Shown in pieces: positions 6,140 through 6,688 of a DNA stretch of 7,753 nt. The stretch lies in the IMG/VR virus record IMGVR_UViG_648276647_000005, positions 1 to 7,753 of that record. The stretch is one strand, 5' to 3'. Both the position numbers and the translations under genes were made by a program. The number at the start of each line of letters is the position of its first letter. Position 1 is the stretch's first letter. The notes beneath the pieces were generated by a model. That model saw only the letters and a list, made by a program, of their open reading frames with translations, searched no databases and had not been told where the DNA came from. Source of the DNA: a virus (lineage: Duplodnaviria; Heunggongvirae; Uroviricota; Caudoviricetes).

Positions 6140-6164
6140 ACAAAAAACCCGCCGAAGCGGGTTT
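6140..6164 (-). terminator. intrinsic terminator at the 3' end of the hok mRNA
   Basis: Stem CCCGC (6148..6152) pairs with GCGGG (6157..6161), loop CGAA. On the minus strand it is followed by TTTTTTG (rc of 6141..6147); on the plus strand only TTT follows. Confidence 0.65.
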
Positions 6165-6231
6165 AGTGCGGGTGCGTTGAGGATGCCTGACACATGAGAG
6201 GTGGCGAGGGATTTCTCCCCCGCCTAGTCTC

Positions 6232-6387
6232 TTACTCCTCAGATTCGTAAGCTGTGAAGACAGCGACCTCCGTCTGGCCGGTTCGGATTCGTACCTCGCA
6301 GAGGTCTTTCCTCGTTACCAGTGCCGTCACTATGACGGTTAAACAGATGACGATCAGGGCGATTAACATCGCCTTTTGCTGCTTCAT
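6232..6387 (-). CDS. hok: Hok/Gef-family type I toxin (51 aa), closest to HokC/HokD by recollection
   Basis: MKQQKAMLIALIVICLTVIVTALVTRKDLCEVRIRTGQTEVAVFTAYESEE: single TM helix and conserved C-terminal periplasmic segment, nearly identical to HokD/RelF and HokC as I recall them. ATG at 6387..6385 with SD AAGGAG 9 nt upstream. Confidence 0.9.
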   Translation of the reverse strand: MKQQKAMLIALIVICLTVIVTALVTRKDLCEVRIRTGQTEVAVFTAYESEE

Positions 6388-6444
6388 AGCCTGCTTCTCC
6401 TTGCCTTTCGGCACGTAAGAGGCTAACCTACATTTGTGAGACAT
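6232..6444 (-). CDS. mok: mok-like in-frame leader ORF (70 codons) overlapping hok
   Basis: ATG at 6444..6442, in frame with hok and sharing its stop, giving a 70-codon ORF over a 51-codon hok. This is the same layout as chromosomal mokC/hokC. Confidence 0.55.
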   Translation of the reverse strand: MSHKCRLASYVPKGKEKQAMKQQKAMLIALIVICLTVIVTALVTRKDLCEVRIRTGQTEVAVFTAYESEE

Positions 6445-6510
6445 AGATTGGGCCTCAGATTAATGTTAAGCGTCCTGCAAGACGCGTAATGTTAACTGGG
6501 GCTTTTCTCT
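6440..6510 (+). ncRNA. sok: sok-like antisense RNA (predicted antitoxin RNA of the hok locus)
   Basis: Plus-strand segment antisense to the mok start region of the hok leader. Begins near ACATAGATTGGGCC and ends in GGGGCTTTTCTCT, resembling the 5' and 3' ends of plasmid R1 Sok RNA as recalled. Weak promoter-like TTGCCT-17-TAACCT at 6403..6432. Boundaries approximate. Confidence 0.45.
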
Positions 6511-6562
6511 ATCTGCCGTTGGTGTTCATGCCCGAGGCAGATAGCCTCAAGCACCCGCAGCA

Positions 6563-6591
6563 ATTCTACTTAACTCCTGTCACCTCGCCAA
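6563..6591 (-). promoter_or_regulatory. candidate hok mRNA promoter
   Basis: Minus-strand -35 TTGGCG (rc of 6586..6591), 17-nt spacer, -10 TAGAAT (rc of 6563..6568). Predicted start near 6556, where the leader begins GGGTGCTTGAGG. Confidence 0.5.
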
Positions 6592-6598
6592 TATGAAA

Positions 6599-6688
6599 TC
6601 AATCAGAAAGGTGATCCATAAGAACAATAACAAGACAATAAATTGCCATTATAGCCGCAATAGCCAGCGCACATTTCAGAACCAGCAC
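6599..6688 (-). CDS. candidate small hydrophobic peptide, 29 aa (MLVLKCALAIAAIMAIYCLVIVLMDHLSD), GTG start
   Basis: GTG at 6688..6686 preceded by GGGAGGT with a 4-nt spacer; an in-frame ATG at 6703..6701 would give 34 aa. Single predicted TM helix. Lies immediately upstream of the hok promoter. Below the track's length cut-off; sequence-only prediction. Confidence 0.3.
   Translation of the reverse strand: MLVLKCALAIAAIMAIYCLVIVLMDHLSD

What the first reader, a model, noticed from the sequence alone, without database searches (positions are those of the whole stretch)
6140..6600. Apparently intact hok/mok/sok type I toxin-antitoxin locus embedded in the prophage nin region
The 51-aa Hok toxin is nearly identical to HokD/HokC as recalled. 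Unlike K-12 hokD, which sits downstream of relBE without its own regulatory RNA elements, this copy appears to keep the full regulatory architecture. There is an in-frame 70-codon mok-like leader ORF, a sok-like antisense segment, a good promoter (TTGGCG-17-TAGAAT), an intrinsic terminator, and a fold-back element: the mRNA 5' end GGGTGCTTGAGG (rc of 6545..6556) is complementary to a 3' segment CCTCAACGCACCC (rc of 6170..6182) with one bulged base. That points to a functional post-segregational killing or phage-defence module carried by the prophage.
Basis: partly seen in the sequence, partly recalled or inferred. Interest (0 to 1): 0.5.

Follow-up and report, generated by a model that had tools for sequence, protein, structure and literature searches.

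The report
Intact prophage hok/mok/sok toxin-antitoxin cassette
This is a complete, ordinary copy of the well-known hok/sok RNA-controlled toxin-antitoxin cassette that many E. coli lambdoid prophages carry; a 94% identical copy (hokW-sokW) has already been tested experimentally.

Summary
The minus strand of 6141..6591 carries a full hok/mok/sok type I toxin-antitoxin cassette:
- a promoter;
- a 416-nt hok mRNA whose 5' end (tac) pairs with a 3' fbi element;
- a 70-codon mok frame containing the 51-codon hok;
- a protective 3' hairpin and a terminator.

On the plus strand lies an antisense Sok gene of about 77 nt. Its promoter region is identical over the 30 bases compared to that of the experimentally validated sokW.

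Rfam RF01794 matches over its full length (114.7 bits) and Pfam HOK_GEF matches at 3e-23. Predicted refolding after 3' trimming behaves like the R1 and hokW controls. The 5'/3' pairing is kept, with one compensatory change, across 56 hok mRNAs from several enterobacterial genera.

The locus is not novel. Similar DNA occurs in 4720 of 5426 complete E. coli genomes, where it is annotated hokD. Phage records call it MokW or HokD, and PHROG 251 is "MokW-like host killing". hokW-sokW of prophage Sp5 (94% identical) is a proven type I system that aids lysis and phage release on induction.

The role of this copy (killing after prophage loss, phage defence or lysis helper) remains untested. Interest is low.

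The parts
6563..6591 (-). hok/mok promoter: -35 TTGGCG (6591..6586), 17-nt spacer, -10 TAGAAT (6568..6563)
   Evidence: Promoter scan. The -10 box and the downstream sequence are conserved in hokW and in the E. coli 300709 prophage copy, while the -35 region differs in hokW. Activity was not tested.
6141..6556 (-). Full-length hok mRNA, about 416 nt, from the inferred start G6556 to the end of the terminator U-tract
   Evidence: The Rfam RF01794 match starts exactly at 6556. The fold gives -173.9 kcal/mol, z = -8.9. The sequence is 97.6% identical to the copy in E. coli O55:H7 DEC5E and 94.4% identical to hokW over nt 1-389.
6545..6556 (-). tac (translational activator) element at the mRNA 5' end, GGGUGCUUGAGG
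   Evidence: It pairs with fbi in the minimum-free-energy fold of the full-length mRNA. It pairs with ucb in the Rfam consensus structure and after 3' trimming. Positions 2, 3 and 5-10 are invariant across 56 homologues.
6498..6506 (-). ucb / anti-SD box AAAAGCCCC (mRNA nt 51-59), the alternative partner of tac and of the mok SD region
   Evidence: Rfam consensus pairs. In the full-length fold, nt 55-57 pair with nt 103-105 next to the mok SD. A forced tac-ucb stem costs +11.9 kcal/mol in the full-length RNA and 0 to +0.3 kcal/mol after removal of 50-60 nt from the 3' end. AGCCCC is invariant in the alignment of 56.
6419..6456 (-). Sok-target hairpin (sokT). The mok SD GAGG (6456..6453) lies in the 5' arm, the mok AUG is at 6444..6442, the 7-nt loop is CUCACAA, and the 3' arm GCCUC is the dcb box
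   Evidence: Helix 3 of the Rfam structure. The hairpin forms in the tac-ucb conformation. That the loop begins with a YUNR-type CUCA is my own reading of the sequence against published knowledge of Sok recognition, not a tested result.
6232..6444 (-). mok reading frame, 70 codons, in frame with hok and containing it
   Evidence: ORF list. It has the same layout and length as R1 mok (18 codons plus hok, read) and as the annotated K-12 mokC.
6232..6387 (-). hok toxin gene, 51 aa, with SD AGGAG at 6401..6397
   Evidence: Pfam HOK_GEF 3e-23 and PHROG 251 'MokW-like host killing' 6e-33. The protein is 98% identical to K-12 HokD, 94% to HokW and 45% to R1 Hok, and it keeps all 18 columns that are invariant in that 5-sequence alignment.
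6401..6429 (+). sok promoter: -35 TTGCCT (6401..6406), 17-nt spacer, -10 TAACCT (6424..6429)
   Evidence: Window 6399..6428 equals the hokW probe YO-597 at 30 of 30 bases. Mutation of this -10 in sokW (primers YO-421/422) abolished antitoxin activity. The consensus promoter scan did not detect it.
6436..6512 (+). Predicted Sok antisense RNA, about 77 nt: a free 5' tail of about 7 nt, a long hairpin, then CUUUUCUCU
   Evidence: The two ends were placed by aligning to the annotated K-12 sokC, L001 653..711. The fold gives -31.1 kcal/mol, z = -5.0, with the same architecture as SokC and SokW. Expression was not tested.
6203..6224 (-). GC-rich hairpin just after the hok stop codon (GGCGGGGGAGAAAUCCCUCGCC), expected to form the protective 3' end of the processed mRNA
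   Evidence: It is present in every fold and sits at the same position in all 56 homologues. Its role is inferred from R1, where mutations in the last stem-loop of the truncated hok mRNA abolish function.
6170..6182 (-). fbi (fold-back inhibitory) element CCUCAACGCACCC
   Evidence: It pairs with tac over 12 bp with one bulged C. It begins 50 nt after the hok stop, within the 45-57 nt range seen in most homologues. In the family alignment the helix is 81% paired, against 35-56% when one side is slid, and pair 4/462 is C-G in 29 sequences and U-A in 22.
6141..6164 (-). Intrinsic terminator: stem-loop 6164..6145 followed by a U-tract
   Evidence: Terminator scan. It is conserved in K-12 hokD and in the E. 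coli 300709 copy but is replaced by other sequence in hokW.

Best explanation
The region is a complete, self-contained hok/mok/sok type I toxin-antitoxin cassette of the phage-borne hokD/hokW subfamily. It is carried as a moron-like insert between the replication/nin genes and the Q-like antiterminator of a lambdoid prophage.

Mechanism, inferred by homology with R1 hok/sok and hokW-sokW:
1. The hok promoter makes a stable 416-nt mRNA. It is locked shut by pairing of its 5' end (tac) with the 3' fbi element, so it is neither translated nor bound by Sok.
2. Slow 3' trimming removes fbi. tac then pairs with the ucb box, the Sok-target hairpin forms, and the mok start region becomes usable.
3. 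While the cassette is being transcribed, the short-lived Sok RNA of about 77 nt, made from the opposite strand, pairs with the mok start region. This blocks mok translation, and therefore the coupled hok translation, and marks the duplex for RNase III.
4. When Sok synthesis stops, the stable hok mRNA pool is translated and the 51-aa Hok peptide damages the inner membrane.

Shown here: all sequence and structure elements are present and intact, and they behave in silico like functional controls. Inferred: transcription, processing, toxicity and neutralisation.

The most likely physiological role is the one demonstrated for hokW-sokW, namely Sok loss on prophage induction, Hok production, and faster lysis and phage release. 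Killing after prophage loss and exclusion of other phages remain possible.
For: - Family models: Rfam RF01794 full-length match at 114.7 bits against a gathering score of 59, E = 2.7e-26; Pfam HOK_GEF 3e-23; PHROG 251 at 6e-33.
- Layout: hok lies inside an in-frame 70-codon mok, as in R1 and K-12 mokC.
- Folding: tac-fbi pairing appears in the minimum-free-energy fold, z = -8.9. The window, hokW and R1 all switch from tac-fbi to a near iso-energetic tac-ucb fold once 50-60 nt are removed from the 3' end.
- Conservation: the 5'/3' helix is 81% paired in 56 distinct hok mRNAs from Escherichia, Kluyvera, Photorhabdus, Pantoea, Enterobacter and others, against 35-56% when slid. One pair is compensatory, C-G in 29 sequences and U-A in 22.
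- Sok: the promoter region and the 5' leader are identical to hokW-sokW over the primer and probe sequences. The predicted Sok folds like SokC and SokW.
- Experiment on the homologue: hokW-sokW is a proven toxin/antitoxin pair. Sok loss and HokW production follow mitomycin C in a RecA-dependent way, and deleting the locus halves phage release.
- Toxicity: HokD, which differs by one residue, is reported toxic.
- Context: similar prophage settings between replication genes and Q are found in E. coli 300709, O55:H7 DEC5E and phage Tritos.
Against: - No expression data exist for this copy.
- Both promoters are modest consensus matches (9 of 12 for hok, 7 of 12 for sok), and the scan finds promoter-like sites at about the chance rate.
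- Minimum-free-energy folding is only a model. With 36-42 nt removed, tac is predicted to pair with a second 3' segment (nt 365-376) rather than with ucb.
- Chromosomal hokA, hokB and hokC loci are reported not to mediate post-segregational killing or to respond to rifampicin, so intact architecture does not guarantee activity.
- hokW sits in a different phage neighbourhood, next to an EaA-like gene, and lacks this terminator. Its induction phenotype may therefore not transfer to this copy.
Confidence: 0.9

Rival explanations
1. The cassette mainly stabilises the prophage by post-segregational killing: cells that lose or excise the prophage lose Sok first and are killed by Hok made from the stable mRNA.
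For: This is the classical role of hok/sok on plasmid R1, and maintenance of prophages is among the reported functions of toxin-antitoxin systems. All the RNA elements needed for delayed activation (tac, fbi, ucb, 3' hairpin) are intact.
Against: Chromosomal hok/sok loci that were tested did not mediate post-segregational killing. The only phage-borne copy that has been studied showed a lysis and phage-release phenotype instead. Loss of an integrated prophage is rare compared with plasmid loss. Nothing in the sequence separates this role from the others.
Confidence: 0.2
2. The cassette is an abortive-infection or superinfection-exclusion module: an incoming lytic phage shuts off host transcription, Sok decays, and Hok kills the cell before the phage completes its cycle.
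For: R1 hok/sok on a high-copy plasmid reduced T4 plating by 42% and plaque size by about 85%, as cited. Prophages often carry defence genes, and hok is enriched in prophages.
Against: The R1 effect was modest and depended on high copy number. The Hok survey found no enrichment of hok next to defence systems. Hok gives no hit in PADLOC. This role has not been tested for any hokD/hokW-type copy.
Confidence: 0.15
3. The locus is an inert relic, as the K-12 hok loci are thought to be: it looks complete but is not expressed, or is not activatable.
For: The K-12 hok copies examined here show damage: IS186 lies next to hokC, and hokD is truncated by relBE. Chromosomal loci failed functional tests. 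Both promoters here are weak by consensus.
Against: No IS element, frameshift, stop codon or broken helix is present. The Rfam match is full-length with few non-canonical pairs. The sok promoter region is identical to the functional sokW promoter region. The Hok peptide is one residue from the toxic HokD. Refolding behaviour equals that of the R1 and hokW controls.
Confidence: 0.08

Closest known systems
hokW-sokW of Sakai prophage 5 (Sp5) / Stx2-converting phage I, E. coli O157:H7 (Takada et al. 2021, PMC8621323)
   Same: It belongs to the same phage-borne subfamily. The mRNA is 94.4% identical over nt 1-389. The 5' leader 6509..6558 and the sok promoter region 6399..6428 are identical. The Sok hairpin has the same 16-17-nt extension. 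The tac-fbi pair and the refolding behaviour are the same. Hok is 94% identical.
   Different: The Sok 5' tail and its target differ at several positions: probe YO-592 does not match the window. This would be expected to limit cross-talk between the two systems. The -35 region of the hok promoter differs, and hokW has no equivalent of the 6164..6145 terminator. The Hok C-terminus is TAYESEE here and VDYESEK in HokW. hokW lies next to an EaA-like gene rather than next to NinB/Q.
hokD (relF) of the cryptic prophage Qin, E. coli K-12
   Same: The toxin is nearly identical, with 1 difference in 51 aa. The DNA is 97.3% identical over window 6401..6139, which covers the hok SD, hok, the 3' hairpin, fbi and the terminator. 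RefSeq labels copies like the one in this window 'hokD'.
   Different: K-12 hokD lacks everything upstream of 6401: the hok promoter, tac, ucb, the Sok-target hairpin, the mok start, and the Sok transcript with its -10 box. These are replaced by relBE. The window copy keeps all of them.
hok/mok/sok of plasmid R1 (parB), the founding member
   Same: The architecture matches element by element: a GGNGCUUGAGGC 5' end, a ucb AGCCCC box, a 70-codon mok in frame with hok, a Sok promoter antisense to the hok SD region, a GC hairpin after the stop codon, and fbi followed by a terminator. The predicted conformational switch is the same.
   Different: Hok is only 45% identical. The leader hairpin is longer in R1, while the Sok hairpin is 16-17 nt longer here. 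R1 is plasmid-borne with a proven plasmid-maintenance role, whereas this copy is prophage-borne.
hokC/mokC/sokC (gef) of E. coli K-12
   Same: It is a chromosomal hok locus with annotated mokC (in frame, 69 aa) and sokC (59 nt). I used it to place the ends of Sok in the window. Hok is 84% identical, and the leader can be aligned throughout.
   Different: In K-12, IS186 lies just downstream of hokC and the aligned fbi region is lost. Its Sok hairpin is short. It is not in a prophage.

Membership tests
[quoted passage not shown] | Small (about 50 aa) hydrophobic Hok/Gef-family toxin | tested here: met
   Pfam HOK_GEF 3e-23, 81.6 bits against a cut-off of 22. PHROG 251 at 6e-33. All 18 columns that are invariant among HokD, HokW, HokC and R1 Hok are kept.
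[quoted passage not shown] | Overlapping mok reading frame that starts upstream of hok with its own SD | tested here: met
   A 70-codon ORF at 6232..6444, in frame with hok. GAGG lies 8 nt upstream of the AUG. The layout matches R1 mok and K-12 mokC. Translational coupling itself was not testable.
[quoted passage not shown] | Conserved hok mRNA leader with the tac stem, the Sok-terminator complement hairpin and the Sok-target hairpin | tested here: met
   cmscan RF01794, model positions 1-157 of 157, 114.7 bits against a gathering score of 59, on the hok-sense strand at 6382..6556.
[quoted passage not shown] | Long-range tac-fbi pairing that closes the full-length mRNA | tested here: met
   A 12-bp helix with one bulge appears in the minimum-free-energy fold, as in the R1 and hokW controls. 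In the family alignment it is 81% paired against 35-56% when slid, with one compensatory pair.
[quoted passage not shown] | Alternative tac-ucb pairing and opening of the mok start region after 3' processing | tested here: met
   This was tested in silico only. The tac-ucb fold costs +11.9 kcal/mol in the full-length RNA. It costs +0.3 kcal/mol after removal of 50 nt and 0 after removal of 60 nt, where it becomes the minimum-free-energy fold. R1 and hokW behave alike. Actual processing is not testable here.
[quoted passage not shown] | cis-encoded antisense Sok RNA with its own promoter, complementary to the mok translation start region | tested here: met
   Tested at sequence level. The promoter region is identical to the functional sokW promoter region, 30 of 30 bases. 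The ends were mapped onto the annotated sokC. The predicted RNA has a free 5' tail, a hairpin and a U-rich tail, z = -5.0. Whether the transcript exists was not testable.
[quoted passage not shown] | Hok is toxic and Sok neutralises it; Sok is unstable and hok mRNA is stable | not testable with these tools
   Known only by proxy: hokW-sokW was tested experimentally, and HokD, one residue different, is reported toxic.
Degenerate K-12-type hokD (relF) locus | hok coding region and 3' UTR retained, but the promoter, tac, mok start and sok absent (replaced by relBE) | tested here: not met
   The K-12 copy matches only window 6401..6139. The window carries the full 5' part, 6402..6591. The window locus is therefore the intact form, not the K-12 form.

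The most novel reading that the evidence does not exclude
The cassette points the same way as the phage early-right/late transcription unit (DUF551, hok, NinB-like, YbcO, Q-like, then the lysis genes), and sok is transcribed against that direction. On induction, antiterminated read-through transcription could run across the cassette, collide with transcription from the weak sok promoter, and also produce 5'-extended hok transcripts. That would explain the unexplained rapid, RecA-dependent disappearance of Sok reported for hokW-sokW, and it would make the cassette an induction-triggered auxiliary lysis timer rather than an addiction module. The 16-17-nt longer Sok hairpin and the conserved 29-codon hydrophobic ORF just upstream (6599..6688) could be specific adaptations of this phage-borne subfamily.
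Probability: 0.2. Interest if true: 0.35.

Novelty: already known. Interest (0 to 1): 0.1.

Why it matters
It matters little as a discovery. The cassette is one of thousands of near-identical prophage copies of a toxin-antitoxin system studied for forty years, and a 94% identical copy has been characterised experimentally.

The practical value is in annotation. RefSeq labels such loci only as the 'hokD' coding sequence, while mok, Sok and the mRNA control elements go unannotated. As a result, intact copies like this one look the same as the truncated K-12 hokD. The element map given here could be transferred to the many similar copies.

The open biological question is which role prophage-borne hok/sok plays: lysis helper, addiction module or phage exclusion. 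Sequence analysis cannot settle it.

Tried and rejected
- The consensus promoter scan did not find the sok promoter. It was located only by homology, so the scan cannot be used as evidence for or against it.
- I tested whether the ORF downstream of hok (5744..5995, 83 aa) is Rem, the 83-aa neighbour of K-12 hokD. There is no similarity. It belongs to PHROG 1813, of unknown function.
- RNAduplex of the 5' end against the 3' UTR picks a site beyond the terminator for R1-type loci. That method alone is therefore unreliable, and I relied on the alignment-based pair count instead.
- Truncations of 36-42 nt give an alternative 3' partner for tac rather than the tac-ucb stem. Only larger truncations give the expected switch. 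I treat the exact processing point as unknown.
- A hairpin upstream at 6775..6850 is not a convincing terminator: z = -2.3 and no U-run.
- A local hairpin presenting the UACG Tyr47 codon to TadA is not supported by folding: z = 0.3.
- PADLOC gives no hit for Hok or its neighbours, apart from weak coiled-coil noise.
- I considered that the locus might be a decayed copy like those in K-12. I rejected this because no element is interrupted.
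Full report
**What is in the sequence**

- The ORF list gives a 70-codon ORF at 6232..6444. Its last 51 codons (6232..6387) are MKQQKAMLIALIVICLTVIVTALVTRKDLCEVRIRTGQTEVAVFTAYESEE.
- The promoter scan finds TTGGCG, 17 nt, TAGAAT at 6591..6563, and one intrinsic terminator at 6164..6145 followed by a T-run.
- Promoter-like sites are no more frequent here than in shuffled sequence (3 found against 2.1 expected), so the promoter is supported by position and conservation rather than by the match itself.
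- The stated 5'/3' complementarity is exact: GGGUGCUUGAGG (6556..6545) against CCUCAACGCACCC (6182..6170), with one bulged C.

**Family assignment**

- Pfam HOK_GEF matches at 3e-23, and PHROG 251 "MokW-like host killing" matches at 6e-33.
- Rfam RF01794 ("sok") matches 6382..6556 on the minus strand over the whole model (1-157 of 157) at 114.7 bits, against a gathering score of 59.
- That Rfam model lies on the hok-sense strand and describes the hok mRNA leader, from the 5' end to the hok AUG. The match therefore certifies the tac stem, the hairpin complementary to the Sok terminator, the Sok-target hairpin and the mok start region together.
- The one notable deviation is an insertion of about 16 nt at the tip of the second hairpin.

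**Comparison with reference loci**

I fetched K-12 hokC/mokC/sokC, K-12 Qin hokD, an R1-type plasmid hok, the best E. coli prophage match and Stx2-converting phage I.
- All wild-type primers and probes of the hokW-sokW study match the Stx2 phage I locus exactly, so that locus is hokW-sokW.
- The window shares with it, without a mismatch, the leader 6509..6558 and the 30-nt probe region 6399..6428, which spans the sok -35 box and most of the -10 box.
- Mutation of that -10 box abolished the antitoxin effect of sokW.
- The alignment shows continuous homology from the -10 box of the hok promoter to fbi. Differences cluster in the Sok 5' tail and its target. The -35 region and the terminator differ from hokW.
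- K-12 hokD matches only window 6401..6139, at 97.3%. It keeps the hok SD, hok, the 3' hairpin, fbi and the terminator, and it lacks the promoter, tac, ucb, the mok start and the Sok transcript.

**Sok**

- On the plus strand, TTGCCT (6401..6406), 17 nt, TAACCT (6424..6429) precede a transcript whose ends I placed by aligning the annotated sokC (59 nt). This gives about 6436..6512, 77 nt.
- The predicted RNA has a free 5' tail, a long hairpin and a CUUUUCUCU tail (-31.1 kcal/mol, z = -5.0). The plan is the same as SokC and SokW.
- The hairpin is 16-17 nt longer than in hokC-type and R1-type loci. All window-like (hokD/hokW-type) copies in the 56-sequence alignment share this extension.

**RNA switch**

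- The full-length 416-nt mRNA folds to -173.9 kcal/mol (z = -8.9), with nt 1-12 paired to nt 375-387.
- As positive controls I folded hokW and R1 in the same way. In all three, tac-fbi is the minimum-free-energy pairing in the full-length RNA, and forcing tac to pair with the ucb box AGCCCC costs 8-12 kcal/mol.
- After removal of 50-60 nt from the 3' end, the tac-ucb fold is within 0-2 kcal/mol of the optimum. It is the optimum for the window at 356 nt. In that fold the Sok-target hairpin (6456..6419) forms.
- This is the conformational switch described for R1.
- With 36-42 nt removed, a second 3' partner for tac is predicted. The true processing point is therefore uncertain.

**Conservation of the 5'/3' pairing**

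- A scan of one genome per species returned 80 hok loci.
- In most of them the best duplex between the 5' end and the 3' UTR lies 45-57 nt after the stop codon. In the window the duplex hit starts 49 nt after the stop.
- On an alignment of 56 distinct mRNAs, 81% of cells in the 12-pair helix are paired, against 35-56% when one side is slid by 1-3 columns.
- One pair switches cleanly between C-G (29 sequences) and U-A (22 sequences).
- Register differences between subfamilies weaken the outer half of the helix, so this is supporting evidence rather than strong covariation evidence.

**Context**

On the minus strand the gene order is:
1. a DUF551 gene;
2. a PHROG 1621 gene;
3. a small hydrophobic ORF;
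4. hok/sok;
5. a PHROG 1813 gene;
6. NinB/Orf-like (DUF1367, phrog_319);
7. a YbcO nuclease;
8. a Q-like antiterminator;
9. an unknown 189-aa ORF;
10. holin, endolysin, spanins and the small terminase subunit.

"Nin region of a lambdoid prophage" is therefore a fair description. The same placement between replication genes and Q is seen in E. coli 300709, O55:H7 DEC5E and phage Tritos.

**How common it is**

- Similar DNA is present in 4720 of 5426 complete E. coli genomes. In 3850 of them the match covers at least 80% of the 501-nt query. The median is two places per genome, and the loci are annotated hokD.
- Seventy-eight phage records carry it, under names such as MokW, HokD toxin or host killer protein.
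- A recent survey counts Hok homologues in 3852 prophages and 2501 phages and shows enrichment in prophages.
- The closest copies I hold are 97.6% identical (O55:H7 DEC5E) and 97.1% identical (E. coli ECMA0423 and Shigella flexneri) over the whole mRNA.

**Function**

- The molecular mechanism is carried over from R1 and hokW-sokW and is well supported by the anatomy.
- The physiological role is not settled. For hokW-sokW, Sok vanishes and HokW appears after mitomycin C in a RecA-dependent way, and deleting the locus halves phage release.
- R1 hok/sok modestly inhibits T4. Chromosomal hok loci failed tests for post-segregational killing.
- I rank the lysis-helper role first, prophage addiction second and phage exclusion third. 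An inert relic is unlikely because no element is damaged.

**Verdict**

The feature is already known and ordinary. Interest is 0.1.

Noticed in passing
window 6599..6688 (-): A 29-codon hydrophobic ORF (VLVLKCALAIAAIMAIYCLVIVLMDHLSD) has a GGGAGG Shine-Dalgarno sequence 5 nt before its GTG start and ends 8 nt before the hok -35 box. It is conserved at 86% amino-acid identity, with the SD and start codon kept, next to hok in E. coli 300709, phage Tritos and E. ruysiae. Codon differences are 4 nonsynonymous with 0-3 synonymous. It gives no Pfam or PHROG hit. It could be a small membrane peptide that travels with the cassette, or a non-coding conserved flank.
   Followed up: partly
window 6246..6249 (-), Tyr47 codon of hok: The Tyr47 codon UAC is followed by G, which gives the UACG motif reported as a TadA A-to-I editing site (Tyr to Cys) in hokB, hokC, hokD and hokE. 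TACGAA is invariant in all 56 aligned hok mRNAs. A local hairpin that would present the motif was not supported by folding.
   Followed up: partly
window about 6463..6485 (tip of the Sok hairpin and of its complement in the hok leader): An insertion of 16-17 nt relative to the Rfam consensus, hokC and R1 lengthens the Sok terminator hairpin. It is shared by all window-like (hokD/hokW-type) copies in the alignment, from Escherichia, Shigella and Kluyvera records among others. This is a subfamily trait of unknown consequence.
   Followed up: partly
window 6401 and 6568; L088 (K-12 Qin): Mosaic breakpoints fall at the edges of functional elements. K-12 hokD homology starts at 6401, the first base of the sok -35 box. 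The 99.5% match to E. coli O55:H7 DEC5E ends at 6568, at the hok -10 box. hokW diverges upstream of the -10 box and downstream of fbi. This fits the cassette being exchanged as a unit.
   Followed up: partly
L002 4170..4235 (E. coli 300709 prophage copy), compared with window 6385..6444: The mok frame is not conserved among close copies. In the 300709 copy, reading the alignment by eye, mok is out of frame with hok and stops at a TGA that overlaps the hok ATG. In the window it is in frame and reads through hok. The length of the in-frame extension also varies among the loci.
   Followed up: no
PP818812.1, L006, L024, L032, L066-L068: Near-identical enterobacterial hok loci occur in records named Actinobacillus phage vB_Apl-pPE4, a Veillonella parvula MAG, Acinetobacter idrijaensis, Xanthomonas pisi, Streptomyces morookaense, and Ferruginibacter and Oscillibacter MAGs. 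Most are on short contigs. Contamination or misbinning is more likely than real host range.
   Followed up: no
window 503..1453 (+) and 3453..4022 (-): Two unexplained ORFs sit at typical moron positions. One is a plus-strand ORF running opposite to the late genes, between the small terminase and the spanin genes; its real start is probably near 905. The other is a 189-aa membrane-like ORF between the Q-like gene and the holin, the slot where Stx phages carry stx. Neither has a Pfam or PADLOC hit, and the second belongs to PHROG 11870, of unknown function.
   Followed up: partly
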